A program made the translations under genes and the position numbers. Positions 161 through 40,955 of a stretch of 56,612 nucleotides of DNA are shown piece by piece (positions within the stretch are counted from its first letter, which is position 1; every line of letters begins with the position of its first letter). A model generated the notes under the pieces. It was not told the DNA's origin, searched no databases, and saw nothing but the letters and a program-made list of their open reading frames with translations. The DNA comes from Anaerolineales bacterium (GTDB taxonomy: Bacteria; Chloroflexota; Anaerolineae; Anaerolineales; UBA11858). The stretch lies in assembly GCA_045888315.1 (NCBI GenBank), contig JBGCVQ010000001.1:1-56612 (forward strand). Reading direction: 5' to 3'.

Positions 161-430
161 TTAAATCCCGGCTTCTGGACCCAGGCCGGCATCGATCAGG
201 GATTCCGTATCATACAGTTCCTGGAGCAGTTCTAAGCTCTTTTGAGCTTCTTCTTCATCCAGCACGCTGATCGCAAACCCGACATGGATGATCACATACT
301 GCCCGATCTCGACCTCGGGCACGACTTCCAGGCAGGCCTCCCGGATCACTCCCCCAAAATCCACCTTGGCCATCCTGATGCCCCCCGCATCATAGAGTTC
401 GATCACTTTTCCAGGTACACCTAAGCACAT
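161..430 (-). CDS. hypC: [NiFe] hydrogenase maturation chaperone HypC/HupF family
   Basis: An internal Met gives the N-terminus MCLGVPGKV, the HypC signature with the essential Cys2. GGGAGG lies 5 nt upstream of ATG 430. The track ORF (161..451) carries a 7-aa extension that would bury Cys2. Confidence 0.85.
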   Translation of the reverse strand: MCLGVPGKVIELYDAGGIRMAKVDFGGVIREACLEVVPEVEIGQYVIIHVGFAISVLDEEEAQKSLELLQELYDTESLIDAGLGPEAGI

Positions 431-476: not shown

Positions 477-1529
477 TTACTCGGCTGGCAAGACCGCCCG
501 GGCGAAATCAAGGGGCTCAATTCCGGGAGATTCGATTCCATGCTGCTGGTAGAATCCCCGGATGGCATTCAGGATGGTCTCCTGGTCCGCCGGCAGGTTC
601 TCCAGGGTATTTTCCAGCCCCACCAGGTCCTTGGCGGGGTAGAAGAAGAAATCTCCTGAGAGATGGACATCTCGCAGGAACCCATCTTCCTGCACGGCGG
701 CAACCTGGATCAATCCTCCTGCTGCCTTATAGGCTTGGTGGATGACATAAACACCTTCCCTGATTTTAACCGACTCTTCAGCCTGGCGGTTATCATTCTC
801 AAACAACCAATCATTGGTGTACATTCGCTCGAAGATCTCGTCCGCTTTGGCCATCAGTTCGCCATCAACCTGATATTTGATAGGATGGCTGCCGAGCAGA
901 GGGACATAACGGCTGATGAGGTCTTCCGCGATCAGGGCCGTGTCGGGCATTTCTCCGGTCACGTCCTTGATCGTGGTCAGATTTTCCCGGAGCGTTTTGA
1001 AGACCTTGTCCCGGAATTTCTCATCCGGGACCCGGAGGCATTTGCTCATGGTCTCATGGTCGAAATCCAGGATGAGATTCCCAACCAGGATGATCATGTC
1101 ATTGATCTCCGCCGCACCGTTCCCGGAGATCTTCTGGTGCTGATAAAGGATATCATTGACGGGTTTATAGACAGCATCCACGCCAAAAGCCCGGTAGGAG
1201 CCCACAACCGGCTCCAGGAATTTGCGGTAGAAATCAGCTTTTTTGGGGGGAACTTGGGGATGATCAGCCCGCAGCACCAGCTGATAGAACAGCTGGTGAC
1301 CGTCCAGGAAGACCGCGCCGCCTCCTACCTCCCGCCGGAAGACCGGGATCCCCTGTCTGGCAGTAAACTCGAGGTCGATGACCTGCCTGGCGTTCTGGTG
1401 ACAGCCGATACACACGTATGGGGTTGCCGGTCTGAGCATGAAGAGCGCTTCCTGCCCTAAATAAGCAGCCGCATGATAGAGAGCCTGGCTGTGTTCCCAG
1501 GAAACCTGGTCTAGAAAATAATACTCCAC
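477..1529 (-). CDS. lplA: Two-domain lipoate-protein ligase (LplA / Lpl(AB)-like)
   Basis: RREVGGGAVFLD matches the LplA RRxSGGGAVFHD motif. HQKISGNGAAE contains the catalytic Lys motif KxSGxA. The C-terminal region (NDWLFEN ... VHLSGDFFFYP) resembles the LplA accessory domain. I place the start at GTG 1529, preceded by AGGAAGG, not at the track start 1928. Confidence 0.75.
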   Translation of the reverse strand: MEYYFLDQVSWEHSQALYHAAAYLGQEALFMLRPATPYVCIGCHQNARQVIDLEFTARQGIPVFRREVGGGAVFLDGHQLFYQLVLRADHPQVPPKKADFYRKFLEPVVGSYRAFGVDAVYKPVNDILYQHQKISGNGAAEINDMIILVGNLILDFDHETMSKCLRVPDEKFRDKVFKTLRENLTTIKDVTGEMPDTALIAEDLISRYVPLLGSHPIKYQVDGELMAKADEIFERMYTNDWLFENDNRQAEESVKIREGVYVIHQAYKAAGGLIQVAAVQEDGFLRDVHLSGDFFFYPAKDLVGLENTLENLPADQETILNAIRGFYQQHGIESPGIEPLDFARAVLPAE

Positions 1530-1567
1530 AATGACCTTCCTGATTTTGATGTTGGACCGAGTGAGGC

Positions 1568-2047
1568 TTATACCCTGTCCCAGTCGGCAATGATCCTTTC
1601 TGCCCTGGCAAGCAGATCGGGGATGACAGCTGAGATCTCCGGACTCAGCTCGGTACCGATTCCCAGATCGAACGGCACAGCGCCCACCAGGTGCAGATGA
1701 CCGGGCAGCTTCTCGCGGAATCTTGCCAACCCCAGCACCTCTTGAAAGGTGATCTGGTGATCGGACATCTTGATCCCGGTGTACATGGGGATCTCGTCCC
1801 CGTCCAGTTCGATCACGGATCCTGGATCCTGGCGGGCATTCACCGCATCCAGGATCAGCAGATGGCTGGCTCCCTCCACCCAGGAGAGCAGGTTCAACCC
1901 CAGCACTCCCCCATCCACGAATTCCCACCCGGGAAGATCTCCCAGACGGGCCTCCAAGGCCTTGAGGGCGTGTACGCCCAACCCTTCATCCTTATTCAAG
2001 GTGTTACCTAAACCAAGAACGATTTTTCTACCTGGTTGATCAGTCAT
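1568..2047 (-). CDS. [NiFe] hydrogenase maturation endopeptidase (HyaD/HybD/HupD family)
   Basis: IVLGLGNTLNKDEGLGVH, LILDAV and MSDHQITFQEVL are typical of HybD-type proteases. It lies directly downstream of the large subunit, which carries a cleavable C-terminal extension. Confidence 0.9.
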   Translation of the reverse strand: MTDQPGRKIVLGLGNTLNKDEGLGVHALKALEARLGDLPGWEFVDGGVLGLNLLSWVEGASHLLILDAVNARQDPGSVIELDGDEIPMYTGIKMSDHQITFQEVLGLARFREKLPGHLHLVGAVPFDLGIGTELSPEISAVIPDLLARAERIIADWDRV

Positions 2048-2073
2048 AATTCCACGATTTCAGAGGGTAAAGG

Positions 2074-2106
2074 ATTCGGTGGCAGCCCGATGGGCTGCCA
2101 CCGAAT
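2074..2106 (-). other. Perfect 15-bp hairpin between hynL and the protease gene
   Basis: ATTCGGTGGCAGCCC-GAT-GGGCTGCCACCGAAT begins 3 nt after the hynL stop codon. No U tract follows. Confidence 0.6.
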
Positions 2107-2108
2107 GA

Positions 2109-3854
2109 TTAGCGGATGATCTGACAAACACTCAGTCCGGTACCGACCTCACCCAGGTCCTGGCCTTCCGCGTCGATCATGTGAATGGCACAGGCCATGC
2201 AAGGATCGAAGGAATGGATGGTCCGCAGGATCTCCAGGGGCCATTCCGGTTTTGCCAGGGGCGTGCCAACCAGGGAAGCCTCATATGCCCCGGGTTTTCC
2301 GTTGTGATCCCGGGGAGAGGCGTTCCAGGTCGTAGGCACGACCATCTGGTAGTTGTCGATCTGGCCGTTCTCGATCACGATCCAATGGCCCAGGGCGCCG
2401 CGGGGGGCTTCCATGTAGCCAAATCCCCTGGCAGATTTCGGCCATGTGTTCGGCTCCCATTTCTGGTCATTGAAGGTCTTGGTATTCCCAGCCGCGATGG
2501 CAGCCACCAGGTCATCATACATACCTGTCATGGCATCGGCAAAGACCTTGGTCTCGATCCCCCGGGCAGCGGTGCGGCCCAGGGTGGAGAAAACTGCCTC
2601 CAGCGGGGCGCCCAGGGTCTTGAGGACGTAATTGGTCAGTTCCTGGGTTTGCTCATGACCCGAAGCGTACATGACCAGCACCCGGGCCAAGGGGCCGACT
2701 TCCATCGGCGTGTCATTCCAGCGGGGCGCTTTCAACCAGGAATATTTCTGATCGACCTCCAGGAAATCATAAGGAGGGTAAGGACCGGTGAACTTGAACT
2801 CGGTCTCCCCTTCCCAGGGATGCAAGCCTTTTCCATCCCCACCCTGATAGTCATACCAGGAATGGGTCACGAATTCCTTCATGAGGTCGAAGTCGCGGGG
2901 ATTGGGCTCGATGATATTGTTGAGGTCGCGGCCCATGATCACGGCCCTGGGAACCAGGAATTGGGATGTGTCGCTGTTATCCGGCCCCGGGAACTCACCC
3001 CAGGTCAGGAAATTCCCCAGGCCCTCTCCCAAGGAAGCGTATTCCAGGTAATAGGGCGCGATGGCCAGCAGGTCGGGGATATAGACCTGGTCCACGAATT
3101 CCTGCATGCGCTGGATGGAATCCTTGATGATCGATAGGCGGCTGATATTCAAAGCGGTATCGCTGTTGACGTCGATCGGCATGGGGACACCACCGACCAC
3201 GAAGTTCGGATGGGGGTTCTTGCCGCCAAAGATGGTGTGGATCTGAGTGACATGGGACTGCCAGTCCAGAGCTTCCAGATAATGGGCAACAGCCAGCAAG
3301 TTCACTTCCGGGGGCAGCTTATAAGCTGGATGCCCCCAGTAAGCATTGGCGAACAGGGAAAGCTGCCCACTGTCAACAATGCGCTGGACTTTGGCCTGCA
3401 CATCCGCAAAATAACCCGGCGAAGAATTCTTCCAGGCTGAAATGCTCTGCTGGATCTGACTGGTCACAGCGGGATCAGCCTTGAGGGCAGAAACCACATC
3501 CACCCAGTCCAGGGCGTGCAGATGGTAGAAATGCATGACATGGTCATGGACATACTGCTGGGCGATCATCAAATTGCGGATCAGGTTGGCCGCTTCCGGG
3601 ATCTGGATGCCCAGGGCATCCTCCACCGAGCGGATCGAGGCAAAGGAATGCACCGTGGTGCAAACCCCGCAAGCCCGCTGGGTGAATGCCCAGGCTTCCC
3701 GTGGATCACGGCCTTTGAGGATCTTCTCGATCCCCCGCACCATGGTGCCGGAGGAGTAGGCGCTAGCGATCTTGTTGTCAGCATCGAGTTCCGCTTCGAT
3801 TCGCAGATGGCCTTCAATACGTGTAATGGGATCAATCACTATTCTCTCAGTCAT
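2109..3854 (-). CDS. hynL: [NiFe] hydrogenase large subunit, group 1 membrane-bound uptake type (Isp-type context)
   Basis: It has N-terminal RIEGHLRIE and RACGVCTTVHS (RxCGxCxxxH). The C-terminal DPCMACAIH is followed by a 23-aa extension for proteolytic maturation. Confidence 0.95.
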   Translation of the reverse strand: MTERIVIDPITRIEGHLRIEAELDADNKIASAYSSGTMVRGIEKILKGRDPREAWAFTQRACGVCTTVHSFASIRSVEDALGIQIPEAANLIRNLMIAQQYVHDHVMHFYHLHALDWVDVVSALKADPAVTSQIQQSISAWKNSSPGYFADVQAKVQRIVDSGQLSLFANAYWGHPAYKLPPEVNLLAVAHYLEALDWQSHVTQIHTIFGGKNPHPNFVVGGVPMPIDVNSDTALNISRLSIIKDSIQRMQEFVDQVYIPDLLAIAPYYLEYASLGEGLGNFLTWGEFPGPDNSDTSQFLVPRAVIMGRDLNNIIEPNPRDFDLMKEFVTHSWYDYQGGDGKGLHPWEGETEFKFTGPYPPYDFLEVDQKYSWLKAPRWNDTPMEVGPLARVLVMYASGHEQTQELTNYVLKTLGAPLEAVFSTLGRTAARGIETKVFADAMTGMYDDLVAAIAAGNTKTFNDQKWEPNTWPKSARGFGYMEAPRGALGHWIVIENGQIDNYQMVVPTTWNASPRDHNGKPGAYEASLVGTPLAKPEWPLEILRTIHSFDPCMACAIHMIDAEGQDLGEVGTGLSVCQIIR

Positions 3855-3865
3855 AATATCTGCTC

Positions 3866-4189
3866 CTACTGCTCGCGCAACCAGGCCAGCGCTTGTTCCT
3901 CGGACTGGAAGTGACGAACCTCGTGTACATAGTAGCTGTCAGGGATCTCAAGTGTTACCGGGTCGAGATCAGCGCCGATGATGGCTGAAATCGGCATCAT
4001 AGGGCGAAACTGTTTCAGCTGCGCAGCGCATTCCTCCCCGGTCGTACCGCTCAGGTCGATCAGCAATTTCCCGTGGTAGTCCGCCAGGAAATTGGCCAGC
4101 GACCGCACATCTTCATGGGAGAACTTGCTGGTATGAACACAGCGCAAGATCCCTTTTTCCACAGGTGTAAGTGTAAAGGATGCCGTCAT
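3866..4189 (-). CDS. Hypothetical 107-aa protein inserted between isp2 and hynL, possibly SpoIIAA/STAS-like
   Basis: The ORF fills the gap exactly, with 10-11 nt spacers on each side. KLLIDLSG and the C-terminal VRHFQSEEQALAWLRE resemble STAS/SEC14-like (DUF3478-type) proteins. The fold call is weak. Confidence 0.55.
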   Translation of the reverse strand: MTASFTLTPVEKGILRCVHTSKFSHEDVRSLANFLADYHGKLLIDLSGTTGEECAAQLKQFRPMMPISAIIGADLDPVTLEIPDSYYVHEVRHFQSEEQALAWLREQ

Positions 4190-4199
4190 CTGATACCTC

Positions 4200-5459
4200 C
4201 TAGGTTTCTAAGGCGTCGGCTACCATTTGAGCGAAGCCAGCCACTTTGACATCCAGATTGAAATGACCCACGCAGTCCGTGAACTGCAGGCGGCAGTTGG
4301 AGCAGGCCATCACCACCGTATCTGCACCGATTTTCTCGAGCTGGTCCATCTTCAATTCGAAGACAGCATAGCGTAGAGGGTCGGCGTCCTTGATGGCGAT
4401 CACGCCTCCACCGCCGCCGCAGCAGATCGCCTGCTCTTTATTGGGACTCATCTCCTTGAAGGAATCCGGAGCCAGGATGTTCATGACCAGGCGGGGTTCC
4501 TTGATATGGCCGCCATTGCGCTGGATCTTGCAGGCGTCATGAAAGGTGATGGTGCCGTTGTTGTAGGCGTTTGCCTTGAGCTTGATGCGCCCGGATTCGA
4601 CATATTCGCCGATCAGCCCCACGATGTGGGTGATCTCCAGGTCCGGGGGAACGTCGACCAGGTTGTAGGCTGTCCAGCGCAGCGCGTCATAAGCGTGACC
4701 GCATTCAGTGACCACGATCTTCTTGACACCCATCTCTTGCGCGCCATCCAGCACCCGCTTGAGGATCACTTTGGTATGCGCCTTACTCCCCTCATAAAAA
4801 CCGAAGTTCACGACCTCCCGGGCTTTAGAGCTCAGGGTCCAGTTCTCTCCAGCCGCATTAAGGATCTCGGCAATGGCAGCCAGGTTCTGGGGAAATTTCA
4901 TGATCTCGATCGAGGAGAATACCACCAGGGTCTCGGCGTCTTTCTTGTCGAGGGGGATATCGACCTCCCACTCATCCTGTACGAAATCTATCCTCTCCGA
5001 GAAGACATCGTCAGTGACGCCTAGCGGGCTGCCCTCATCGAGCTGCTTCTGGACCGCGTCCTCCAAATCTGTGGGAACAACTCCCGCGGCCACCAAGCCG
5101 GTGCGCACATCCGCGATCAAGTGGCCGATATCGATGCCCATCGGGCACACCAGGGCGCATTTGTTGCAGACCGTACAAGCGTGGTAGACATACGAGCTCC
5201 AGTTCTGGAGGTCCTCTTCTGTGACCCGCTTATCAACCCCAAGAGCCAGTTTGATCTTACCGCCCAGGGTGAAGCGCTGCTCGTAAGCTTTGCGGAGCAG
5301 CTCGAACTTCCAGACCGGGGCATATTCGGGAACGCCGGTTGCCTGGTAGAAGTGGCAGGCCTCTGCGCACATACCGCAGCGGGTGCAAGCTTCCAGCTGC
5401 GATGCAACTCGGGAACCAGTTTCCCTGATAAATGTATCAATTGCGTTTTGAGTGTCCAT
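4200..5459 (-). CDS. isp2: Isp2: HdrD/DsrK-like Fe-S protein with two 4Fe-4S ferredoxin motifs and CCG cysteine-rich domains
   Basis: Motifs seen: CTRCGMCAEAC, CTVCNKCALVCP, and CCGGGGG ... CSNC (CCG domain). It has no signal peptide. Its position after isp1 matches hynS-isp1-isp2-hynL operons. Confidence 0.88.
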   Translation of the reverse strand: MDTQNAIDTFIRETGSRVASQLEACTRCGMCAEACHFYQATGVPEYAPVWKFELLRKAYEQRFTLGGKIKLALGVDKRVTEEDLQNWSSYVYHACTVCNKCALVCPMGIDIGHLIADVRTGLVAAGVVPTDLEDAVQKQLDEGSPLGVTDDVFSERIDFVQDEWEVDIPLDKKDAETLVVFSSIEIMKFPQNLAAIAEILNAAGENWTLSSKAREVVNFGFYEGSKAHTKVILKRVLDGAQEMGVKKIVVTECGHAYDALRWTAYNLVDVPPDLEITHIVGLIGEYVESGRIKLKANAYNNGTITFHDACKIQRNGGHIKEPRLVMNILAPDSFKEMSPNKEQAICCGGGGGVIAIKDADPLRYAVFELKMDQLEKIGADTVVMACSNCRLQFTDCVGHFNLDVKVAGFAQMVADALET

Positions 5460-5471
5460 ATCTGACCTCTA

Positions 5472-6149
5472 CTAAGGGTTGACTCCACGTTTTCCGAAAT
5501 AAATCCCCTGCCTGGTGCGGGAGAAGAAATAGAAAATGAAGTGGGAGATGCGGCTGAGGGGAATCCAGATGAGCAGGAAATCCACCGTCAGCATATGCAG
5601 CGCGAAGGCTTTCTCATAGGGATTGATGAGATGGTGCGTCATCAGGTAGCCGCTGACCATGGGCAGGAAGACCAGGGTCCAGTTCAACCATTCTGCCGGT
5701 CCGGTAAGAAGCTTCATGACCGGATTGACCAGGCGGTTGATCAGCAGGGCGATCATGGCCACGATGGATACCGCTGCCAGCCAGTCTGTGATCGGAAGTG
5801 GTAGGGTAGGCCACCCGAAACCAAGCAGGCTCTTCCAGGCCAGCATATGGGGGGTTCCCAAGATGAGGACAACCAGCAGTCCCAGGTGGAACAACCCGCC
5901 AGCCAGGTAGGTGACCATATTCTTTGAGAAAGTCCGCTTTACCCAGGGAATGAAAGGCCAGACGATCCCGCCTTTCAAATAGGACTTGACCACCCCACCC
6001 AGCTTGCTTCCCATGGAGGGTACCTTGTCCTTCTTCCAGGCCAGGAAAATCACCCTGGCAAGGCGGTATGTCATACCGCCTATAAACACCAACCACGCCA
6101 CCTTGAACAAGGGTCCGCGTGCGAATTCAAGAAGTGTATACCAGTTCAT
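5472..6149 (-). CDS. isp1: Isp1: NarI/DsrM/HdrE-like integral membrane b-type cytochrome
   Basis: About five hydrophobic helices carry His residues (FHLG, PHML, THHL, LHML, SHF). It lies between the small subunit and the HdrD-like gene. Confidence 0.8.
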   Translation of the reverse strand: MNWYTLLEFARGPLFKVAWLVFIGGMTYRLARVIFLAWKKDKVPSMGSKLGGVVKSYLKGGIVWPFIPWVKRTFSKNMVTYLAGGLFHLGLLVVLILGTPHMLAWKSLLGFGWPTLPLPITDWLAAVSIVAMIALLINRLVNPVMKLLTGPAEWLNWTLVFLPMVSGYLMTHHLINPYEKAFALHMLTVDFLLIWIPLSRISHFIFYFFSRTRQGIYFGKRGVNP

Positions 6150-6158
6150 GATTATCTC

Positions 6159-7280
6159 CTAGTCTCCATCCTGTGCGGGTTGGGCATCATCCGTGGTCTT
6201 CTTTTTTGCCTTGCCGATGGAAGAGACTGCCGCACCTGCGACAGCTCCTGCCGCAGCGGCAGCACCGACCATGGTGACCTCAGGCCTGGTGAGTGGAGCG
6301 GATTGTCCTTGATAGAATCCGCCGCCATCCCAGAAATTAGGCTCTGAGCAGCCCAGGCAGGGATGTCCGGATTGAACCGGGAATGATAACCCCTGGTCCC
6401 ACTTCATCACCGCGCAGGCGTTGTAGGTGGTGGGTCCCTTGCAGCCCAGCTTATACAGGCACCAGCCCTGCTTGGCACCTTCATCATCGAACGATCCAGC
6501 AAACTTGCCGGCCTCATAGAAGGGGCGCCGCAGGCAGCGATCGTGGATGGTGTGACCATAGAAAGGCATGGGCCGATTGAGGCTGTCCAGTTCTGGCAGC
6601 GCTCCGAAGACCACGAAGTGGGCCACGGAACCAGTGAAGACCTCCGGGATCGCCGGGCAGCCGGGAATGTTCAAGACCGGTTTATCGGTGATGATCTCCC
6701 AGACTCCTTTGGCTCCCGTGGGGTTAGGTTTAGCCTTGGGAAGTCCGCCAAAGGCAGCACAGTTCCCGGTGGCTATGATGGCAGCTGCGCCATCGGCTGC
6801 TTCTTTCAGCAGATCCAAAGCCGAACGGCCGCCTATGGTGCAGTACGCCCCATTCTCACCTGAAGGAATCGAGCCTTCGACCACTAGAACATACTGGCCG
6901 CGATACTGCTCCATGACGCTCTCTTTATTGGCTTCGGTTTGAAAACCAGCGGCTGCGGTCAGGGTCTCATGGTATTCCACTGAAATGACATTCAGGACCA
7001 GGTCGATCAATGTTGGGGACTGGGAGCGGGTCAAGGCTTCACTGCATCCAGCACAATCCTGGAATTCCAGCCAGATGACCGGGACCCGCGGCTTGGATTC
7101 CAAAGCCCGGGCAACCTGCTTAGCGGTCACTGCCCCCAGATCTGTGGGCGTTTTCCCCATCTCGAAGGGAGGAAGCTGACCCAGGCCCATAACCCCTGCC
7201 AGCATCCCACACATCTTGATGAAATCCCGCCGCGAAACGCCTTCCTTCTGTAGATGTTCGTAAATCGTTTCCTCGGGCAT
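6159..7280 (-). CDS. hynS: [NiFe] hydrogenase small subunit with Tat signal and C-terminal membrane anchor
   Basis: SRRDFIKMCGMLAG is a twin-arginine signal. Fe-S cysteine patterns are present (QDCAGCSE, GNCA, PGCP, CxxC... CLGCSEP). The C-terminal Ala/Gly-rich helix is followed by KAKKK. Confidence 0.95.
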   Translation of the reverse strand: MPEETIYEHLQKEGVSRRDFIKMCGMLAGVMGLGQLPPFEMGKTPTDLGAVTAKQVARALESKPRVPVIWLEFQDCAGCSEALTRSQSPTLIDLVLNVISVEYHETLTAAAGFQTEANKESVMEQYRGQYVLVVEGSIPSGENGAYCTIGGRSALDLLKEAADGAAAIIATGNCAAFGGLPKAKPNPTGAKGVWEIITDKPVLNIPGCPAIPEVFTGSVAHFVVFGALPELDSLNRPMPFYGHTIHDRCLRRPFYEAGKFAGSFDDEGAKQGWCLYKLGCKGPTTYNACAVMKWDQGLSFPVQSGHPCLGCSEPNFWDGGGFYQGQSAPLTRPEVTMVGAAAAAGAVAGAAVSSIGKAKKKTTDDAQPAQDGD

Positions 7281-7307
7281 CGTGATTTTCTCCTTTTCCA
7301 GCGCTGG

Positions 7308-7754
7308 TTACTCGCAGGAAACCCCATCTTCCTCTAACTTGGCTTTATAAGCATCTAGCCCTTCCGAGCCAGTAGCCAAGGAACCCTTTTCGCCATCCCA
7401 GTCCTCAGCCTTGATCTCTGCGATCCAGCCCTCCCCATAAGGATCTGAGACCACGATATTGGGATCGCTGGCCAGCTTGTCATTCCCACGGAGCAGCTCA
7501 CCCGTGACGGGAGCGGGAACCGGACCCACGAATTTACTGGATTCGACGGTCGCAGTGCTCTTTCCCTGGGGGACGGTCTTGCCGACCTTCCTGTCGCTGA
7601 CTGTCACTGCCGTAAACGAGCCCCCGGCCAGCTTGGTCGCTACTGCGGTCATACCGATCCGGATCACATTCTCACCCATGGGCTTGGCCCAGACATGTTT
7701 CTCGATCAGGTAATAGAGATCATCGGGTAGATCACATCCATTGATTTTTGCCAT
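7308..7754 (-). CDS. GcvH-family lipoyl carrier; candidate LbpA-type lipoate-binding protein
   Basis: TVESSKFVGPVPAPVTGEL ... SDPYGEGWIAEIK aligns with the GcvH core VESVKA...PVSGE...EPYxxGW. The candidate lipoyl Lys is K74. No gcvT or gcvP is in the window. Confidence 0.8.
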   Translation of the reverse strand: MAKINGCDLPDDLYYLIEKHVWAKPMGENVIRIGMTAVATKLAGGSFTAVTVSDRKVGKTVPQGKSTATVESSKFVGPVPAPVTGELLRGNDKLASDPNIVVSDPYGEGWIAEIKAEDWDGEKGSLATGSEGLDAYKAKLEEDGVSCE

Positions 7755-7766
7755 CTTGCCTCCTCC

Positions 7767-8135
7767 TTAAAATGTCAGGACCGTTTTGCAGTCGTCTGCC
7801 ACAGACCACATATATGCCCCACCAACCATCTTGATCCCATCCAGCATGTCCTCTGCTTTGAGATCGTGCAGTTCCATCGATGCCGTGCAGGCAGTGAATT
7901 CCACTCCTGCTTCCAGAGCGTCATTGAGGAATTTGCTGACGGGCTCCCCCCCTTCCTTGGGGAATACCTTCTCCGCTGCACCTTTCTTGAGCAGCTGGGT
8001 CCCGTCAATGGTGAAGAACATGGTGACTTCATAGTCCATAGCGGCAGCCAGGGTCGCGAAGAAAAAAGGGGTCGCGCAGCGCCGGGGGGTTTCCGGCCCA
8101 CTGGTCATGATGATCAATACCTTATCCTCGTCCAA
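7767..8135 (-). CDS. DsrE/DsrF-family sulfur-relay protein (122 aa)
   Basis: ETPRRCATPFFFA has the DsrE-type active-site Cys context (Cys20). A second Cys lies in FTACTASMELH. The size and alpha/beta pattern fit the DsrE family. Confidence 0.75.
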   Translation of the reverse strand: MDEDKVLIIMTSGPETPRRCATPFFFATLAAAMDYEVTMFFTIDGTQLLKKGAAEKVFPKEGGEPVSKFLNDALEAGVEFTACTASMELHDLKAEDMLDGIKMVGGAYMWSVADDCKTVLTF

Positions 8136-8174
8136 CGTTTCCTCCTCTTGGGTACTTCATTTTCAATTAACTTA

Positions 8175-8651
8175 CTAGAACGAAAGCGCGATGGCGTTGT
8201 CGCTGGCATACTCCAGGAAGGTGGCTGCGCCGCCAATCTCGACCCCATCGATCAGGTCTTCCTTCTTGATACCCATCACGTCCATGCTCATCTGGCAGCC
8301 GATTATCCTCACCCCACCCTCAACAGCTATTTCCAGCAGCTCGCTCAGCTTGGCGACATTGGCTTTTTTCATCCAGGAATTCATCATCATAGTCGCCATG
8401 GGGGTCATCCCAGGCAGCATACCAATGATGTTAGGGATCGGGACAGGCATAGCAGGATTGGCGATCGGGGCCACTTGCAGTTTATCCGCTTTGCCCTTCT
8501 TGATAATCTCCAAGCCGTAGAACGTAAAGAAAATTGCCGCTTCCATACCCAGGCCAAGCGCTCCAGTGGCAATGATCAGCGGTGGGTAGCCCGCGTCCAG
8601 GGTTCCATGAGCAGCAATGATCGCCACCCGATTTGCTTGATTATTTGACAT
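8175..8651 (-). CDS. DsrE/DsrF-like (COG2210-type, DsrE3-like) sulfurtransferase, 158 aa
   Basis: RVAIIAAHGTLD, the Met/Pro-rich insert NPAMPVPIPNIIGMLPGMTPMATMMM, and a conserved Cys in RIIGCQMSMDVMG (Cys119). Confidence 0.7.
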   Translation of the reverse strand: MSNNQANRVAIIAAHGTLDAGYPPLIIATGALGLGMEAAIFFTFYGLEIIKKGKADKLQVAPIANPAMPVPIPNIIGMLPGMTPMATMMMNSWMKKANVAKLSELLEIAVEGGVRIIGCQMSMDVMGIKKEDLIDGVEIGGAATFLEYASDNAIALSF

Positions 8652-8689
8652 TTTTCACCTCATTAACATACATAAATGGAATTTCAAGG

Positions 8690-8923
8690 CTACGCTTTCT
8701 TGATATAGAATGTGTAGGATCCTCCGTCCTCCTCATGACCGAGAAGCTCATGTCCGGTCTTCTTCGAAAAAGCCGTGACATCCGGGACCGAGCCGGGATC
8801 GGTGGAGATCATCTTCAGCACCTGGCCGGATTGCAGCTCGTCCATAGCCTTCTTGGTCTTGATGATTGGCATCGGGCAGGAAAGCCCACTAGCGTCCAGA
8901 ACCTGATCGAATTCGTATGTCAT
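8690..8923 (-). CDS. tusA: TusA/SirA-family sulfur carrier
   Basis: The 77-aa protein has LDASGLSCPMPI (CPxP motif, Cys16). Confidence 0.9.
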   Translation of the reverse strand: MTYEFDQVLDASGLSCPMPIIKTKKAMDELQSGQVLKMISTDPGSVPDVTAFSKKTGHELLGHEEDGGSYTFYIKKA

Positions 8924-8953
8924 GATTGTTCTCCTTTATTCTGTCGATTTCCG

Positions 8954-9703
8954 TTAACTTTTATGGATACTGCTCATCTCTGAGATCACCTTCAGCCGCC
9001 GGAGCATCTCAGCTCTTTCTGTGCTGATATCCCCGAAAGTTTCCGCCACCTCAGCGATCCAGGTGGCAATCTTGGCCTGTTTGCGTTCATCAAGTACCGG
9101 CAGATCGGCTGCGGCTTTCAGCAGTTCAGCGCGGTCAATCCCATATTCCTCAGCCAGGCGGCTAATTTCCCGGTCCCGCTCTTCAGGATCAGGCTGGTTG
9201 AGATAGAACTGGCCGGCAACGATCATCGCGCTGGGCTTGTCTTCCACCATGATAAAACCCCGGGCGTAACGCAGGCCGGCGTGGCAGCTGTGAAAGATGG
9301 GGCGCGTGTCGCGCTCCTGCGCTAATTCCTTCCAGGAATCCAGACAGGCCTGGTGGCCAGCTGGGCTGTCCTGGATCAGTTCGCAGAATCTTGAGCAGTG
9401 GCTCATCTCTGAAAGAGGCTGGCCCTCCATATCCGTGACCACCGCGCCGACTTCCGCAATCTGGGAAAATACATTCTGGATGGATTGGATGCAGTGCAGG
9501 GGAAGGATCTCAGTAGGAGCCGAATCGACCACCTCAGCGTCGTGAGTCAGGGAGAGCAGCTTATCGATCTCTTCCTGCCGGAATCTCCAATGACTGCCAA
9601 CCTTAATGCCTTCTAGCCTGCCGTCTTTAAGCATGCGGTAGATAGTGGTCCTATCCACATTGAGCAGTTTTTGCACTTGTTTGGCGGTGAGTAGCTCTGT
9701 CAT
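8954..9703 (-). CDS. Transcriptional regulator: excisionase/MerR-type HTH plus PocR sensory domain
   Basis: The N-terminus TAKQVQKLLNVDRTTIYRMLKDGRLEGIKVGSHWRF is an HTH. The Cys/His-rich PocR-like core reads HCSRFCELIQ...GHQACLDSW...FHSCHAGL. Confidence 0.75.
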   Translation of the reverse strand: MTELLTAKQVQKLLNVDRTTIYRMLKDGRLEGIKVGSHWRFRQEEIDKLLSLTHDAEVVDSAPTEILPLHCIQSIQNVFSQIAEVGAVVTDMEGQPLSEMSHCSRFCELIQDSPAGHQACLDSWKELAQERDTRPIFHSCHAGLRYARGFIMVEDKPSAMIVAGQFYLNQPDPEERDREISRLAEEYGIDRAELLKAAADLPVLDERKQAKIATWIAEVAETFGDISTERAEMLRRLKVISEMSSIHKS

Positions 9704-9964: not shown

Positions 9965-11455
9965 ATGAAAACCCAGCGTTTTGAGGTCCTGAGCCAGTCA
10001 GAACTGGACCAGATCCATGCCGCCTCGATGGAGATTCTAGAGGAAGTAGGCATCAAGGTACCCTGGAAGCCAGCCCGAGATTATTACCGCGAGAAAGGCG
10101 CCAGAGTCGATGACGATGCCCAAGCCGTAAAAATACCCGAATCACTTGTCATGTGGGCCCTGGACCAAGCGCCGTCTGAATTCAAGCTATATGGAAACGA
10201 CCCAGAATTCCAGCTCCAGATCGGTGGTGAACAGTTAAATCCAGTCTTTGCCGGGTTGGGCACTCCGCTCAGTGTGGTCGACCTAGACAGCGGTGAGACC
10301 CGGAAAGCGAGTTTTCAGGATACCCTAGAGCATATCATCCTGGTCAATGCCTGCCAGAACATCCACAACACTCAGATGGATGTCTGGCCAGATGATATTC
10401 CCATGACCACCATCCACACCGAAGCCATTTGGGCCTGGGCCCATAACAGTCGCAAAGCCTATGGGATGGGCTGCTACGGCTACCTTCCTACCTGGGACAT
10501 GATGCGCATGATGGCCTTGGCGGTGGGGGGTAAAAAAGAACTCCGGGAACATCCCCGCTTTTTAGCCATTTGCTCCGTGGTCAGTCCCCTCCAGATGGAC
10601 CAGGCCCAGGCGGAGGGCATGTTCATCTGCGCAGATTACGGCCAACCGCTGGCTATATCCCCGGAAGGCATCGCCGGGGCAACCGCGCCGGTCACCCTGG
10701 CGGGACTGCTAGCCCAGGAGAATGCCAACATCCTGGCGCATATCACCCTGTCCCAGATCTACAAGCCTGGGGCACCGGTGCTCTATGGGACAGTCTCCAC
10801 GGTCGCCAATATGCGGGACGGCTCAGTGGCGCTGGGTGCCCCGGAAACCGGCTTGATCACCGCCGGTTCCGCCCAGCTAGCCCGCCGCTACGGGCTCCCC
10901 ATCCGCAGCGTGGGAGGCACCACGGAATCGAAACGAGCAGATGTCCAGGCTGGTTTTGAGCGCCTGGGCAGTCTGCTCCCAGCAGTCTTGGCGGGGGTCA
11001 ACCTGATCACCTGTGCTGGTACGCTGAGCGGCACCATGTTGGAAGATCATGCCCTGCTCATGCTGGACGATGAGTTTTGCGGTGCTGCACTGCGGATCGC
11101 CCGCGGGATCGAGGTCACTCCAGAGACACTCGCCCTGGACCTGATCAAGCAAACCGGCTATGAAGGGAATTATCTGGCAGCTGATCACACAGTGGAAAAC
11201 TTCAGAGAAGAGCTGTTCATTCCCTCGCTGTTCTCTCGGCAGACCGATGTCGATTGGGAAGAGAGCGGCCGCAAACAAGCCCTTGATCTTGCCAGGGAGA
11301 AGGTCAGGCAGGTGCTGGCAGATCACCAGCCTCGCCAGCTTGACCCTGCCGTTGAAAAAAGTATGGAAGAATTCCGAGCGATGGTCGCCGAACGTGATTT
11401 GAACGATTTTTATAACTACGAACAGCCCGAATACCAGGACTTTGACAACTTATGA
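9965..11455 (+). CDS. MttB-superfamily (trimethylamine methyltransferase family) protein, non-pyrrolysine type
   Basis: The 496-aa protein has an N-terminus typical of the family (FEVLSQSELDQIHAASMEILEEVGIKV). The frame is uninterrupted, with no internal TAG. Confidence 0.8.
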   Translation: MKTQRFEVLSQSELDQIHAASMEILEEVGIKVPWKPARDYYREKGARVDDDAQAVKIPESLVMWALDQAPSEFKLYGNDPEFQLQIGGEQLNPVFAGLGTPLSVVDLDSGETRKASFQDTLEHIILVNACQNIHNTQMDVWPDDIPMTTIHTEAIWAWAHNSRKAYGMGCYGYLPTWDMMRMMALAVGGKKELREHPRFLAICSVVSPLQMDQAQAEGMFICADYGQPLAISPEGIAGATAPVTLAGLLAQENANILAHITLSQIYKPGAPVLYGTVSTVANMRDGSVALGAPETGLITAGSAQLARRYGLPIRSVGGTTESKRADVQAGFERLGSLLPAVLAGVNLITCAGTLSGTMLEDHALLMLDDEFCGAALRIARGIEVTPETLALDLIKQTGYEGNYLAADHTVENFREELFIPSLFSRQTDVDWEESGRKQALDLAREKVRQVLADHQPRQLDPAVEKSMEEFRAMVAERDLNDFYNYEQPEYQDFDNL

Positions 11456-12807
11456 ACAACGACCAGAAACTCTCTCTCCGTACCAAGCTGCTATTCAGCA
11501 CAGGGGACCTGAGCACCAGCATTCCCCTGGCGATCCTGATGTTCTTCCAGCTGTATTTCTTAACCGATATTGCCGGTTTGCGTCCAGACCTGGCCGGGTA
11601 CGCAGTAGGACTGCCCCGCATCTGGGACGCCATTAATGATCCCCTCTTCGGTTTGATCTCCGACCGCATCCGCACCCGCTGGGGCAGGCGTCGGGTCCTG
11701 CTGCTGTTTGGCTCTGTACCCCTGGGATTGAGCTTCATTTTCATGTGGCTGGTCCCAAATCTGGGGCAGATCGGATTGGCTTTCTATTATGCGATCGTTT
11801 TCATTGTCTTCGATACAGCCTTTACTGTGGTCCATGTCGGCTACAACTCCCTGACGCCAGAAATGACCAGCGATTATGACGAGCGCAGTTCCCTGAATGG
11901 TTATCGGATGGTATTCTCGATCAGCGGCACCCTGGGCGCTATTATCTTGGCGACGGTACTGGGCTGGTATATCGCAGACTCCCGGACCTTATTTTCCATC
12001 CTGGGCATCGGATTGGGTCTGATCTCAATCATCCCCCCCCTGATCGTCTTCCGGATCACACATGAAAAACCGGCTGAGGAGCTTCCCGAACCCCTTTCGC
12101 TGGGAACAGCCCTGAAACAAACCCTCACCAATCAACCCTTCCGGATGGTGATGGGACTGTACCTGCTGAGCTGGACCACAGCCAGCATCCTGGCTGCTGT
12201 GCTGGTGTACTATGCAAATTATTATCTAAGGGTGCCAGATCAAGCCAATTATTTCGTGCTGGTGGCGGAAGGAGCTGCCATACTCTTTATCCCGTTCTGG
12301 GTCTGGGTTTCCCGGGTTTTGGATAAACGGAGGGCTTTTATACTTGGTTCACTAAGCTGGATCGTGGTGCTCCTGGGCATTTATCTCCTGCCTGCAAACC
12401 AGGTACTCCTGGCCTATTTACTTGCTGGCCTCTCCGGTTCTGGAATCGCCACCGCCTATGTACTGCCCTGGGCGATGATCCCGGACGTGGTGGAGCACGA
12501 CGAATTACGCTCCGGCCAGCGCCGGGAGGGATCCTATTATGCCTTTGCCTCCTTCTTCCAGAAGTTAGCCACTGGCGCTGCGCTGTGGGGCATGGGGATG
12601 GCCCTATCCCTGACCGGTTACATCACTCCCCCTTCCAGCGGCGCCCTACCCGTGCAGCCAATTCAGGCCGTGGATGCCATTCGCTTCTTTATTGGCCCCG
12701 TGCCCACGGTCCTGCTAATCCTGGCTGTACTGTTCGCCTGGCGGTACCCGATAACTCGCGAGAAACACCAAGAAACACTTCAAGCCCTTGCCGATCGGGA
12801 AATGTAG
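11452..12807 (+). CDS. GPH-family (MelB-like, MFS superfamily) cation symporter
   Basis: About 12 TM segments. WDAINDPLFGLISDRIRTRWGRRR is the GPH signature. The start overlaps the mttB stop (ATGA). Confidence 0.8.
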   Translation: MNNDQKLSLRTKLLFSTGDLSTSIPLAILMFFQLYFLTDIAGLRPDLAGYAVGLPRIWDAINDPLFGLISDRIRTRWGRRRVLLLFGSVPLGLSFIFMWLVPNLGQIGLAFYYAIVFIVFDTAFTVVHVGYNSLTPEMTSDYDERSSLNGYRMVFSISGTLGAIILATVLGWYIADSRTLFSILGIGLGLISIIPPLIVFRITHEKPAEELPEPLSLGTALKQTLTNQPFRMVMGLYLLSWTTASILAAVLVYYANYYLRVPDQANYFVLVAEGAAILFIPFWVWVSRVLDKRRAFILGSLSWIVVLLGIYLLPANQVLLAYLLAGLSGSGIATAYVLPWAMIPDVVEHDELRSGQRREGSYYAFASFFQKLATGAALWGMGMALSLTGYITPPSSGALPVQPIQAVDAIRFFIGPVPTVLLILAVLFAWRYPITREKHQETLQALADREM

Positions 12808-12852
12808 CGATTCAGGATTCAATCTCTCACCCATCAGATAGCAGGAGGGGAT

Positions 12853-25053: not shown

Positions 25054-25455
25054 ATGGGAAGTCCACAGAAGAAGATCAGGGTTTTAATCGCCAAAGCTGG
25101 TCTGGACGGCCATGACCGGGGAGCTAAAGTGGTCGCCCGGGCGCTGCGGGATGCAGGCATGGAAGTGATCTACACTGGCCTGCGGCAGACTCCAGAGATG
25201 ATCGCCGAAGCGGCCCTGCAAGAAGACGTCCAGGTGGTAGGCCTGTCGATCCTATCCGGCGCTCACATGACCCTGGTGCCCAAAGTAGTGAGTTTGCTCA
25301 AAGATGAGGGCCTCGGAAGCGTCAGGCTCTTCCTGGGGGGCATCATTCCCGATGAAGACAAGCCTGAACTGGAAAAACTGGGGGTATCCGGCATTTACGG
25401 ACCCGGCACCTCAACCCAAATAATCATAGAAGATATCCAAAAAGCATGCCAGTAA
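25054..25455 (+). CDS. Methylmalonyl-CoA mutase-type B12-binding small subunit/domain
   Basis: [34 protein letters not shown] contains the DxHxxG cobalamin-binding motif. Confidence 0.88.
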
Positions 25456-40687: not shown

Positions 40688-40955
40688 CTATCCTGCAAAC
40701 TTGGTCTTTCGGTCTTCCATAATATTATCAGCAACCTGGAAGGATGAGCAATCCTTCTCTGAAGGAATATCCCTGTGGATTAGAAGTAGTGGACTGGGCT
40801 TTCTTTCGCGTGAGTGTTCGGGTAAGCTGCCGCATCCCTCCAATCAACACATGACAAGTTACATGAAAAAAGGTGACGAACAAACAGCTTATCTGGATAT
40901 AATTGAATATGTGCCGTCAGGCACTTTAATTTATGCACGTCTCAGGAGTGAAGAT

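What the first reader, a model, noticed from the sequence alone, without database searches (positions are those of the whole stretch)
7308..7754. GcvH-family lipoyl carrier with no glycine-cleavage partners, placed directly upstream of hynS
The 148-aa protein keeps the H-protein core, including the lipoyl-lysine context VESSK(74)FVGPVPAPVTGEL and SDPYGEGW. It lies 27 nt upstream of the hydrogenase small-subunit gene and 12 nt downstream of a dsrE-like gene. No gcvT, gcvP or lpd gene is anywhere in 56 kb. It also ends in a Cys-containing tail (DGVSCE). The length, the N-terminal extension and the sulfur-relay neighbours fit the LbpA class described for sHdr systems better than a metabolic GcvH.
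Basis: partly seen in the sequence, partly recalled or inferred. Interest (0 to 1): 0.65.

Follow-up and report, generated by a model that had tools for sequence, protein, structure and literature searches.

The report
Lipoyl carrier built into a hydrogenase operon
A small lipoic-acid-carrying protein of the kind known only from bacterial sulfur-oxidation systems sits here inside a conserved, actively transcribed hydrogen-uptake operon, which suggests it is the missing partner of a hydrogenase subunit whose substrate has never been identified.

Summary
It has an H-protein fold, and K74 aligns with the lipoyl lysine. It is not a metabolic GcvH. It scores below both NCBIfam GcvH cut-offs. It carries the two extra invariant cysteines (C7, C147) that define LbpA proteins. 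In trees it groups with LbpAs from sHdr clusters, not with GcvHs found next to gcvP.

The gene is part of a tight operon: tusA-dsrE2-dsrE-lbpA-hynS-isp1-isp2-(STAS)-hynL-hynD-lplA-hypC. All 28 relatives with at least 53% identity sit in this cassette, and their records are labelled with several phyla. Three salt-marsh rhizosphere metatranscriptomes cover it selectively. No sHdr genes are present.

A sibling Chloroflexi module has the same sulfur relay, a cytochrome b, an HdrD-like protein and an LbpA, but no hydrogenase.

Best reading (inferred): the lipoylated protein is the cytoplasmic thiol/disulfide or sulfane-sulfur partner of Isp2, which is DsrK/HdrD-like. That would link H2 oxidation to sulfur chemistry much as DsrMK works with DsrC.

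I judge it a new variant of a known kind. I found no paper describing this link.

The parts
7308..7754 (-). LbpA-class lipoyl carrier (GcvH fold). Lipoyl lysine K74; signature cysteines C7 and C147, the latter being the penultimate residue.
   Evidence: Pfam GCV_H E=4.7e-27. Below the NCBIfam GcvH cut-offs. K74 aligns to the lipoyl lysine. C7, K74 and C147 are invariant. AlphaFold pLDDT 94.4; TM 0.89-0.90 (normalised to target length) to solved H-proteins.
7767..8135 (-). Small DsrE-family sulfurtransferase (122 aa)
   Evidence: Pfam DsrE/DrsE_2. C20 and C83 are invariant in 28 sequences.
8175..8651 (-). DsrE2-like sulfur carrier (158 aa)
   Evidence: Pfam DrsE_2 8.8e-48. NCBIfam SulfCarrDsrE2 168.6 bits, below the cut-off of 210. 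C119 invariant.
8690..8923 (-). TusA sulfur carrier (77 aa, CPMP motif)
   Evidence: Pfam TusA 7.5e-28. C16 invariant.
8954..9703 (-). HTH_17 + PocR sensory-domain regulator, first gene of the cluster
   Evidence: Pfam. Present in the same position in 21 related loci.
6159..7280 (-). HynS: [NiFe]-hydrogenase small subunit with a Tat signal and a C-terminal membrane anchor
   Evidence: Pfam and NCBIfam hydA 439 bits, TAT signal. Hydrophobic segment at residues 335-353.
5472..6149 (-). Isp1: membrane anchor, putative cytochrome b of the TmcC/HmcE type
   Evidence: NCBIfam TmcC 126.7 bits and HmcE 102.7 bits, both below cut-off. Several hydrophobic segments and five invariant His residues.
4200..5459 (-). 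Isp2: cytoplasmic HdrD/DsrK-like iron-sulfur protein with one complete CCG motif
   Evidence: Pfam Fer4_8 + CCG. NCBIfam DsrK 231.7, HmcF 223.7 and TmcB 217.4 bits, all below cut-off. Two CxxCxxCxxxC motifs and C310/C346/C347/C386/C389 are invariant; no predicted TM segment.
3866..4189 (-). 107-aa STAS/SpoIIAA-like ORF; an optional part of the cassette
   Evidence: Weak Pfam hit, E=5e-4, below cut-off. Present in 16 of 28 related cassettes.
2109..3854 (-). HynL: [NiFe]-hydrogenase large subunit, Isp-type (group 1e-like)
   Evidence: Best solved relative is 3MYR_B at 827 bits, against 708 for the next; I recall 3MYR as the Allochromatium vinosum membrane-bound hydrogenase. Gene order is hynS-isp1-isp2-hynL.
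1568..2047 (-). HynD: hydrogenase maturation endopeptidase
   Evidence: Homologue in L001 carries PF01750 HycI. Conserved in the cassette.
477..1529 (-). Lipoate-protein ligase with Lpl(AB) architecture (catalytic domain plus C-terminal accessory domain). Start is GTG at 1529, after AGGAAGG.
   Evidence: Pfam LplA-B_cat 2e-35 and Lip_prot_lig_C. NCBIfam lipoyltrans, LplAB and LplB hits below cut-off. Start assigned from the alignment to L001. Present in 21 of 25 cassettes that have enough downstream DNA, in most of them directly after hynD.
161..430 (-). HypC hydrogenase maturation chaperone (begins MCLGVPGKV)
   Evidence: ORF and sequence. Named from the MCLG N-terminus typical of HypC, which is my own knowledge. 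Homologues occur near several cassettes.

Best explanation
The gene encodes an LbpA-class lipoate-binding protein, not a glycine-cleavage H protein. It is lipoylated at K74 by the ligase encoded at the end of the same operon.

It works in the cytoplasm as the swinging-arm thiol/disulfide (or sulfane-sulfur) carrier of a membrane complex made of an Isp-type [NiFe] hydrogenase: HynSL outside the membrane, Isp1 cytochrome b in it, and the DsrK/HdrD-like Isp2 inside.

Proposed electron and sulfur flow:
1. H2 is oxidised outside the cell by HynSL.
2. Electrons cross the membrane through Isp1 to the Isp2 iron-sulfur clusters.
3. At the Isp2 CCG site they reduce the lipoyl disulfide, or a lipoyl/Cys147-bound per- or trisulfide, on the carrier.
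4. TusA, DsrE2 and DsrE load the sulfane sulfur.
5. The net reaction is H2-dependent reduction of protein-bound sulfane sulfur to sulfide. This parallels DsrMK reducing the DsrC trisulfide. The same hardware could also run in reverse.

What is shown: the fold, the lysine, the two cysteines, the placement away from canonical GcvH, the operon membership, the conservation and the transcription.

What is inferred: that the protein is lipoylated, that Isp2 is its partner, and the direction of electron flow.

My confidence by step:
- LbpA-class identity: about 0.85.
- Functional partner of the Isp1/Isp2 pair: about 0.6.
- Direction from H2 to sulfane sulfur: about 0.4.
For: Identity:
- GCV_H fold, with K74 on the lipoyl position.
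- Below the GcvH equivalog cut-offs.
- C7, K74 and C147 are invariant in 27 sequences. This matches the two-cysteine LbpA signature of PMC6067878.
- The clade has 98.5% bootstrap support. Its sister group consists only of LbpA-type proteins from sHdr-type clusters in 98 of 150 bootstraps and includes a canonical GcvH in 1 of 150.

Operon:
- Intergenic gaps are 9-61 nt from the regulator to hynD.
- All 28 relatives with at least 53% identity lie in the same cassette. Their records are labelled Chloroflexota, Ignavibacteria, Calditrichia, Acidobacteriota and Actinomycetota.
- The ligase is present in 21 of 25 loci long enough to tell.

Transcription:
- Assembled transcripts from three metatranscriptomes cover 1383-9676 and cross the lbpA/hynS, lbpA/dsrE/dsrE2 and lplA/hynD junctions.
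- The next 20 kb is almost empty of transcripts.

Partner:
- Isp2 is DsrK/HmcF/TmcB-like, with invariant CCG cysteines and no TM segment.
- A sibling module in Chloroflexi keeps TusA-DsrE2-DsrE, a NarI-like cytochrome b, an HdrD-like protein and an LbpA, but has no hydrogenase. The constant neighbours of the carrier are therefore the cytochrome b/HdrD pair and the sulfur relay.
- In sHdr systems LbpA is likewise proposed to present sulfur to CCG-type clusters.

Hydrogenase type: the best solved relative is 3MYR. The order hynS-isp1-isp2-hynL defines group 1e, which is linked to sulfur respiration (PMC7735108).

My own knowledge: lipoamide E0' is about -290 mV (also quoted), H2 about -414 mV, and S0/HS- about -270 mV, so the proposed direction is exergonic. 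DsrC also carries its reactive cysteine as the penultimate residue.
Against: There is no biochemical evidence. Lipoylation, contact with Isp2 and sulfur binding are all untested.

Classical Isp-type operons (hynS-isp1-isp2-hynL in Acidithiobacillus and Acidianus) are described without an lbpA gene, so Isp2 does not generally need such a partner.

A few cassettes lack parts within the DNA held. Examples are the ligase in L007-L009 and L020, and TusA/DsrE2 in L020 and L032.

Deep branches of the H-protein tree are weakly supported; the sister relationship to type II LbpA has only 33% support.

Isp1 might pass electrons to quinone rather than to Isp2.

The AlphaFold model shows the C-terminal tail at high confidence rather than as an obviously floppy arm.
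Confidence: 0.55

Rival explanations
1. The hardware is the same but runs oxidatively. The cassette would be a minimal sHdr-like sulfur-oxidising unit: TusA and DsrE load sulfane sulfur onto the lipoyl carrier, Isp2 oxidises it, and the electrons go through Isp1 to quinone. The bidirectional hydrogenase would feed extra electrons in or vent surplus ones.
For: The closest relatives of the carrier outside the cassette sit in sHdr type II/ETF clusters of the kind attributed to sulfur oxidisers (PMC11094781). The hydrogenase-less sibling module with an ArsR-type regulator is most simply read as quinone-linked. Oxidation of dihydrolipoamide by menaquinone is exergonic (my own knowledge of the redox potentials). 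Group 1e enzymes are described as bidirectional.
Against: No HdrA, no second CCG protein and no HdrC-like protein are present. A single CCG site is not known to make sulfite. The hydrogenase genes are interleaved with isp1 and isp2 in every one of the 28 cassettes, which points to H2 as the main substrate.
Confidence: 0.2
2. The protein and its ligase are a housekeeping lipoate-scavenging or lipoyl-relay pair, like B. subtilis GcvH acting as a lipoyl donor, and merely sit next to the hydrogenase genes.
For: The H-protein fold and an adjacent LplA-type ligase. GcvH proteins are known lipoyl relays in Firmicutes (discussed in PMC6067878).
Against: The carrier is separated from the ligase by seven genes. 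It sits 12 and 27 nt from dsrE and hynS. The position is kept across several phylum labels. It has the LbpA cysteines. LbpAs tested so far lack relay activity. The gene is co-transcribed with hyn genes. The hydrogenase-less sibling keeps the carrier next to the HdrD-like gene without a ligase beside it.
Confidence: 0.08
3. The carrier is a hydrogenase maturation or protection factor, for example a dithiol reductant or sulfur donor for cluster assembly or reactivation of HynSL, rather than a metabolic substrate carrier.
For: The ligase lies among maturation genes (hynD, hypC). Lipoyl dithiols are good reductants (my own knowledge).
Against: HynSL is exported by the Tat pathway, whereas the carrier has no signal sequence or TM segment. 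The same carrier, sulfur relay and cytochrome b/HdrD set exists without any hydrogenase. The great majority of characterised [NiFe] hydrogenases mature without such a protein (my own knowledge).
Confidence: 0.07
4. It is an ordinary glycine-cleavage H protein that happens to be encoded away from gcvT and gcvP.
For: Several source databases name homologues 'glycine cleavage system H protein'. Pfam GCV_H matches and the lysine is conserved.
Against: It scores below both curated GcvH cut-offs. It has two extra invariant cysteines. No gcvT or gcvP is in the window. No GcvP-family ORF was found within about 6.5 kb of the gene in any of the 28 cassette loci, whereas true GcvHs in the same scan sit next to GcvP. 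A canonical GcvH appears in the sister group in 1 of 150 bootstraps.
Confidence: 0.03

Closest known systems
LbpA lipoate-binding proteins of sHdr sulfur-oxidation systems (Cao et al. 2018, PMC6067878)
   Same: GcvH fold and lipoyl lysine. An N-terminal 'GC' cysteine and a C-terminal cysteine. Neighbourhood of TusA and DsrE-family sulfurtransferases. A dedicated LplA-type ligase in the cluster. Nearest sequence relatives (45-53% identity) are LbpAs of sHdr type II/ETF clusters.
   Different: No sHdrA/B/C genes. The only CCG protein is Isp2 of a [NiFe] hydrogenase. There is one carrier gene instead of two or three. No LipS1/LipS2 radical-SAM genes or LipT were found in the window or in the cassette loci. 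The lysine context is ESSKF instead of ESGKW.
GcvH, H protein of the glycine cleavage system
   Same: Fold (TM 0.89-0.90, normalised to target length, to 1ONL and 3AB9) and lipoyl-lysine hairpin.
   Different: 33-39% identity. Below the curated family cut-offs. About 20 residues longer, with a cysteine-bearing N-terminus and tail. Never next to gcvP in the loci examined.
Isp-type (group 1e) [NiFe] hydrogenases HynSL-Isp1-Isp2 (Allochromatium, Thiocapsa, Aquifex, Acidithiobacillus)
   Same: Gene order hynS-isp1-isp2-hynL. Tat-exported small subunit. Best solved relative is 3MYR. Presumed link to sulfur metabolism.
   Different: Here the operon is extended upstream by tusA-dsrE2-dsrE-lbpA and downstream by a lipoate ligase. 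This extension is not described for the classical operons.
DsrMK(JOP) with DsrC (a functional analogy only)
   Same: A membrane cytochrome b plus a cytoplasmic CCG-domain protein acting on a small cysteine-bearing sulfur carrier fed by TusA and DsrE. Isp2's top NCBIfam hit is DsrK. The carrier's reactive cysteine is the penultimate residue, as in DsrC (the DsrC fact is my own knowledge).
   Different: The carrier has a lipoyl-protein fold, not a DsrC/TusE fold. No dsrAB is present. Electrons would come from H2 rather than from quinol or DsrAB chemistry.
Hydrogenase-less TusA-DsrE2-DsrE-cyt b-HdrD-LbpA module of Chloroflexi (L038, L039, L082; found here, and in none of the papers I searched)
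   Same: The same sulfur relay, a NarI-like membrane protein, an HdrD-like protein 36% identical to Isp2, and a two-cysteine carrier directly downstream.
   Different: No hynS or hynL. An ArsR-type instead of a PocR-type regulator. No ligase in the cluster. The carrier is only 40-42% identical.

Membership tests
LbpA (sulfur-metabolism lipoate-binding protein) | GcvH-like fold with the strictly conserved lipoyl-attachment lysine | tested here: met
   Pfam GCV_H. K74 aligns to the lipoyl lysine. Invariant. Model TM 0.89-0.90 (normalised to target length) to H-proteins.
LbpA (sulfur-metabolism lipoate-binding protein) | Two conserved cysteines absent from GcvH, one near the N-terminus and one near the C-terminus (PMC6067878) | tested here: met
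   C7 and C147 are 100% conserved in 27 cassette sequences. They are present in all sHdr-linked relatives and absent in the GcvP-linked ones.
LbpA (sulfur-metabolism lipoate-binding protein) | Encoded in or next to an shdr (HdrA/B1/B2/C1/C2-like) gene cluster | tested here: not met
   No HdrA/B/C-like genes in the 56-kb window or in the 28 cassette loci. The only CCG protein is Isp2.
LbpA (sulfur-metabolism lipoate-binding protein) | Accompanied by TusA and DsrE-family sulfurtransferases (PMC11094781) | tested here: met
   TusA, a DsrE2-like protein and a small DsrE lie directly upstream. This holds in 25 of 28 cassettes. Active-site cysteines are invariant.
LbpA (sulfur-metabolism lipoate-binding protein) | Dedicated LplA-like ligase in the cluster, usually together with LipS1/LipS2 and LipT | tested here: inconclusive
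   A ligase with catalytic and LplB-like domains is present at 477-1529 and in 21 of 25 cassettes. No radical-SAM or LipT gene was found in the window or in the cassette loci.
LbpA (sulfur-metabolism lipoate-binding protein) | Phylogenetic placement with LbpAs rather than with GcvH | tested here: met
   The sister group is made only of LbpA-type proteins from sHdr-type clusters in 98 of 150 bootstraps and includes a canonical GcvH in 1 of 150. Deep nodes are weak.
LbpA (sulfur-metabolism lipoate-binding protein) | Actually lipoylated by its own ligase, not by canonical LplA or LipM, and inactive in glycine cleavage or lipoyl relay | not testable with these tools
   Needs expression, mass spectrometry and complementation.
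GcvH (glycine cleavage H protein) | Scores above the curated equivalog/subfamily thresholds | tested here: not met
   TIGR00527 scores 75 bits against a cut-off of 115.85. NF002270 scores 98.4 against 117.
GcvH (glycine cleavage H protein) | Genomic association with gcvT and gcvP | tested here: not met
   None in the 56-kb window. No GcvP-family ORF in the cassette loci, whereas L060, L072, L073, L078 and L079 show GcvP next to canonical GcvH. Whole genomes could not be inspected.
Isp-type (group 1e) [NiFe] hydrogenase operon | Gene order hynS-isp1-isp2-hynL, with a membrane Isp1 and an HdrD-like Isp2 | tested here: met
   HynL is closest to 3MYR. Definition taken from PMC7735108. A formal HydDB classification was not run.

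The most novel reading that the evidence does not exclude
The lipoylated carrier is the physiological substrate of Isp2. In that case HynSL-Isp1-Isp2 plus LbpA, TusA and DsrE would form a previously unrecognised respiratory module: an H2:protein-bound sulfane-sulfur oxidoreductase using lipoate. It would be a DsrMK/DsrC-like system built on a lipoyl protein, carried by records labelled with several phyla and strongly expressed in sulfidic rhizospheres. The hydrogenase-less sibling would be its quinone-linked counterpart.
Probability: 0.4. Interest if true: 0.85.

Novelty: new variant of a known kind. Interest (0 to 1): 0.7.

Why it matters
Lipoate-binding LbpA proteins are so far known only as parts of sHdr sulfur-oxidation systems. 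The cytoplasmic Isp2 subunit of Isp-type hydrogenases has had no known substrate since these operons were first described, and a 2021 review still lists it as of unknown function.

A conserved, transcribed operon that places an LbpA, its ligase and a complete sulfur relay around hynS-isp1-isp2-hynL gives a concrete candidate for that substrate, and it can be tested. It also extends lipoate-dependent sulfur chemistry to hydrogen metabolism.

The cassette has at least 120 sequence clusters at 90% identity. It is found in salt-marsh, rhizosphere and marine-sediment samples. It may therefore matter for H2 and sulfur cycling by Anaerolineae and other abundant sediment bacteria.

It also flags a systematic mis-annotation: these proteins are labelled 'glycine cleavage system H protein' in public records.

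Tried and rejected
- **Solved LbpA structures.** I searched the PDB by sequence and by fold for an LbpA structure to compare with. Only GcvH and GcvH-L entries came back.
- **Isp1 in Pfam.** Pfam gave nothing for Isp1. NCBIfam gave only sub-threshold TmcC/HmcE hits.
- **Canonical gcvH in the same genomes.** I considered checking whether genomes with the cassette also hold a canonical gcvH next to gcvT and gcvP. A trick of matching contig lengths was judged too unlikely to succeed to justify another whole-database search, so I did not run it.
- **Representative search.** The 1.84-billion representative search showed only 10 representatives at E<1e-30. It carries no context, so I used it only for that count.
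- **Literature.** Searches combining LbpA or lipoate with Isp1/Isp2, Hyn, group 1e or Anaerolineae found no paper making this link. PMC6776052 mentions lbpA only in the Thermomicrobium sHdr cluster.
- **Rejected readings.** Canonical GcvH, a housekeeping lipoyl relay and a maturation factor are rejected for the reasons given under the rival explanations.
- **Mirror-tree test.** I did not pursue a co-evolution test of the carrier against Isp2. All cassette genes share one history, so it could not discriminate between partners.
Full report
**1. The observation**

It has an ATG start preceded by a GGAGGAGG ribosome-binding site. The plus-strand translation of the same coordinates is full of stops.

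Pfam assigns GCV_H at E=4.7e-27. In phmmer alignments to solved H-proteins from T. thermophilus, M. tuberculosis and E. coli, the K of VESSK (K74) falls on the lipoyl lysine. DPYGEGW is shared.

Pfam scans of the large ORFs of the window, several of which matched no family, found no gcvT, gcvP or lpd.

An AlphaFold model built on 44 homologues is confident (pLDDT 94.4). It superposes on solved H-proteins with TM 0.89-0.90, normalised to target length.

**2.

The gene is the fifth of about thirteen co-oriented genes on the minus strand, from 9703 down to 161. Gaps are 9-61 nt as far as hynD, then 38 nt to lplA and 46 nt to hypC by the start coordinates I assigned (parts list). In order:
- a PocR/HTH regulator
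- TusA
- a DsrE2-like protein
- a small DsrE
- the H-like protein
- HynS, with a Tat signal
- Isp1, a membrane protein similar to TmcC/HmcE
- Isp2, similar to DsrK/HmcF/TmcB, with Fer4 and CCG domains
- a 107-aa STAS-like ORF
- HynL
- the HynD protease
- an LplA-type lipoate-protein ligase
- HypC

These assignments rest. The ligase has catalytic and LplB-like accessory domains. Its real start is a GTG at 1529.

HynL is closest to 3MYR (827 bits, against 708 for the next entry). I recall 3MYR as the Allochromatium vinosum membrane-bound hydrogenase. The order hynS-isp1-isp2-hynL is the signature of Isp-type, group 1e hydrogenases, which are linked to sulfur respiration (PMC7735108).

**3. GcvH or LbpA?**

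The protein scores below both curated NCBIfam GcvH thresholds: 98.4 against 117 bits, and 75 against 115.85 bits.

Cao et al. 2018 define LbpAs by three things: the lipoyl lysine; two conserved cysteines that GcvH lacks, one N-terminal and one C-terminal; and linkage to shdr genes and a specific ligase (PMC6067878). The window protein has C7 (in NGC) and C147 (in SCE, the penultimate residue). C7, K74 and C147 are invariant in 27 cassette sequences.

I scanned 185,579 species-representative genomes and kept 80 loci. In them:
- Every protein with the two cysteines lay either in the hydrogenase cassette or in an sHdr-type cluster. Those clusters contain HdrA-like and CCG proteins, EtfAB, a 716-aa CCG/Fer4 membrane protein, a second H-like gene, LplA and radical-SAM genes.
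- Cysteine-less proteins of 123-134 aa lay next to GcvP.

An NJ tree with 200 bootstraps recovers the hydrogenase-linked clade at 98.5%. Its sister is the type II sHdr/ETF-linked LbpAs of Actinomycetota, Alicyclobacillus and Gemmatimonadota, which are 45-53% identical, but that node has only 33% support.

In a second run of 150 bootstraps, the sister group was made only of LbpA-type proteins from sHdr-type clusters in 98 replicates. It contained a canonical GcvH in 1.

The exception is that there is no sHdr here.

**4. Conservation and expression**

At least 120 clusters (90% identity) of 147-149-aa homologues at 67-95% identity exist. The records that name an organism say Anaerolineae or Chloroflexota.

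All 28 genome loci with a relative of at least 53% identity carry the same cassette. Their record labels include Anaerolineae, Caldilineaceae, Thermoflexales, Oscillochloris, Herpetosiphon, Ignavibacteria/Melioribacteraceae, Calditrichia, Acidobacteriota and Actinomycetota. Some of these are submitter labels and may be wrong.

The ligase is present in 21 of the 25 loci that extend far enough, in most of them directly after hynD. TusA is present in 25 of 28.

These residues are invariant across the cassette:
- the active-site cysteines of TusA, DsrE2 and DsrE
- five histidines of Isp1
- both ferredoxin motifs of Isp2
- one complete CCG motif of Isp2 (C310-X35-CC-X38-CxxC)

The window sequence occurs in salt-marsh, rhizosphere and marine-sediment metagenomes. 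Assembled transcripts from three rhizosphere metatranscriptomes cover 1383-9676 almost continuously. They span the lbpA/hynS, lbpA/dsrE/dsrE2, isp1/hynS and lplA/hynD junctions.

As a control I laid the same runs on the adjacent 20 kb. That stretch is nearly empty apart from one fasciclin gene. The signal is therefore RNA, and it is specific to the cluster. Contigs carry no strand information and their depth is only a rough measure.

**5. A sibling module**

Two related Chloroflexi genome loci (L038, L039) and a metagenome contig (L082) carry this gene order: ArsR-type regulator, TusA, DsrE2, DsrE, a NarI-like membrane protein, an HdrD-like protein (36% identical to Isp2), and a two-cysteine H-like protein. 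There is no hydrogenase.

The next relatives of that carrier are again in sHdr/ETF clusters.

So two separate LbpA lineages have the same constant neighbours: the sulfur relay and a cytochrome b/HdrD pair.

**6. Mechanism**

The following is inferred, not shown.
- HynSL is exported by the Tat pathway and anchored by a C-terminal helix.
- Isp1 spans the membrane.
- Isp2, TusA, the DsrE proteins, the ligase and the carrier have no export signals.

I propose that the carrier is lipoylated at K74 by the operon's ligase and acts as the cytoplasmic substrate of Isp2. Electrons from H2 would pass through HynS and Isp1 to the Isp2 clusters. There they would reduce the lipoyl disulfide, or a lipoyl/C147-bound per- or trisulfide whose sulfur is delivered by TusA, DsrE2 and DsrE, releasing sulfide.

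Three points make this plausible:
- It mirrors DsrMK acting on the DsrC trisulfide. Isp2's best family hit is DsrK. DsrC's reactive cysteine is also the penultimate residue (my own knowledge).
- It mirrors the proposed presentation of sulfur by LbpA to the CCG clusters of sHdr.
- The energetics allow it: H2 about -414 mV, lipoamide -290 mV, S0/HS- about -270 mV. The values other than lipoamide are my own knowledge.

The oxidative direction, from sulfane sulfur to quinone or H2, cannot be excluded. It is the main rival.

Housekeeping lipoyl relay, hydrogenase maturation and ordinary glycine cleavage are unlikely, for the reasons listed with each rival.

**7. Comparison with what is known, and novelty**

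The protein meets the structural, sequence-signature, sulfur-relay and phylogenetic criteria of LbpA. It fails the criterion of linkage to shdr genes. Its maturation set is partial: a ligase, but no LipS1/LipS2/LipT.

Classical Isp-type operons are described without lbpA, and Isp2 is still listed as of unknown function (PMC8551704).

None of seven full-text searches found a paper connecting LbpA or lipoate with Isp-type hydrogenases. The library does not hold most subscription-journal papers, so prior mention cannot be excluded.

I rate it a new variant of a known kind, with interest 0.7. It takes LbpA outside the sHdr paradigm and offers a testable substrate for Isp2 in a widespread, expressed operon.

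**8. Limits**

- There is no biochemistry.
- Deep nodes of a 148-residue tree are weak.
- The tree is NJ, not maximum likelihood.
- Whole genomes could not be inspected for a separate canonical gcvH, for lipoyl synthases or for shdr genes elsewhere.

Noticed in passing
window 3866-4189 (-): A 107-aa ORF with a weak STAS/SpoIIAA-like hit is wedged between isp2 and hynL, with 10-11 nt gaps on each side. It is present in 16 of 28 related cassettes and absent from others such as L001. Its role is unknown.
   Followed up: partly
L039 4427-8794; L038; L082 4224-8441: A hydrogenase-less module in Chloroflexi: ArsR-type regulator, TusA, DsrE2, DsrE, NarI-like membrane protein, HdrD-like CCG protein and a two-cysteine LbpA-like protein. 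The carrier family has about 50 clusters at 80% identity or more. None of the papers I searched mentions it.
   Followed up: partly
window 9965-14118 (+): Divergent from the PocR regulator lie an MttB-family methyltransferase (496 aa), an MFS_2 transporter and a Cys/Met-metabolism PLP enzyme. A B12-binding protein and a MeaB GTPase lie at 25054-26468. This may be a methylated-amine or betaine demethylation system.
   Followed up: no
window 30726-34796 (-): SecA of 1356 aa. The DEAD, P-loop and wing/scaffold domains each hit in two stretches, which implies large insertions relative to typical SecA.
   Followed up: no
window 40701-43228 (+): An adjacent pair: a DHODB-type Fe-S/FAD protein and a Fer4_20 + Pyr_redox_2 protein. 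This is NfnAB/SudAB-like (ferredoxin:NADP or sulfide dehydrogenase type). It is not Lpd.
   Followed up: no
window 20873-22228 (-): A protein with three fasciclin domains. It is the only gene in the 20 kb next to the cluster with transcript coverage comparable to the hydrogenase operon, in all three metatranscriptomes.
   Followed up: no
window 2822-3063 (inside hynL): Transcript contigs in two runs join 2822 to 3063, skipping 240 nt (80 codons), but with only 21 nt on the short side and unlike sequence beyond. These are probably chimeric assemblies with a related hydrogenase rather than a real deletion.
   Followed up: no
L032 10086-10442: In one Actinomycetes MAG the cassette's carrier gene is frameshifted. 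The N-terminus is missing and the tail is unrelated. This is either a pseudogene or an assembly error.
   Followed up: no
L049, L053, L067, L068; L055, L056, L059, L065: There are further non-canonical H-like families. One is a cysteine-less 138-aa protein next to HdrA/HdrB/HdrC-like genes in Bacillota and Betaproteobacteria MAGs. Another is a Desulfobacteraceae 'QSRKW' H-like protein followed by LplA and a radical-SAM gene.
   Followed up: no
one search hit table: Public records name these hydrogenase-linked proteins 'glycine cleavage system H protein'. That is likely a systematic mis-annotation.
   Followed up: yes
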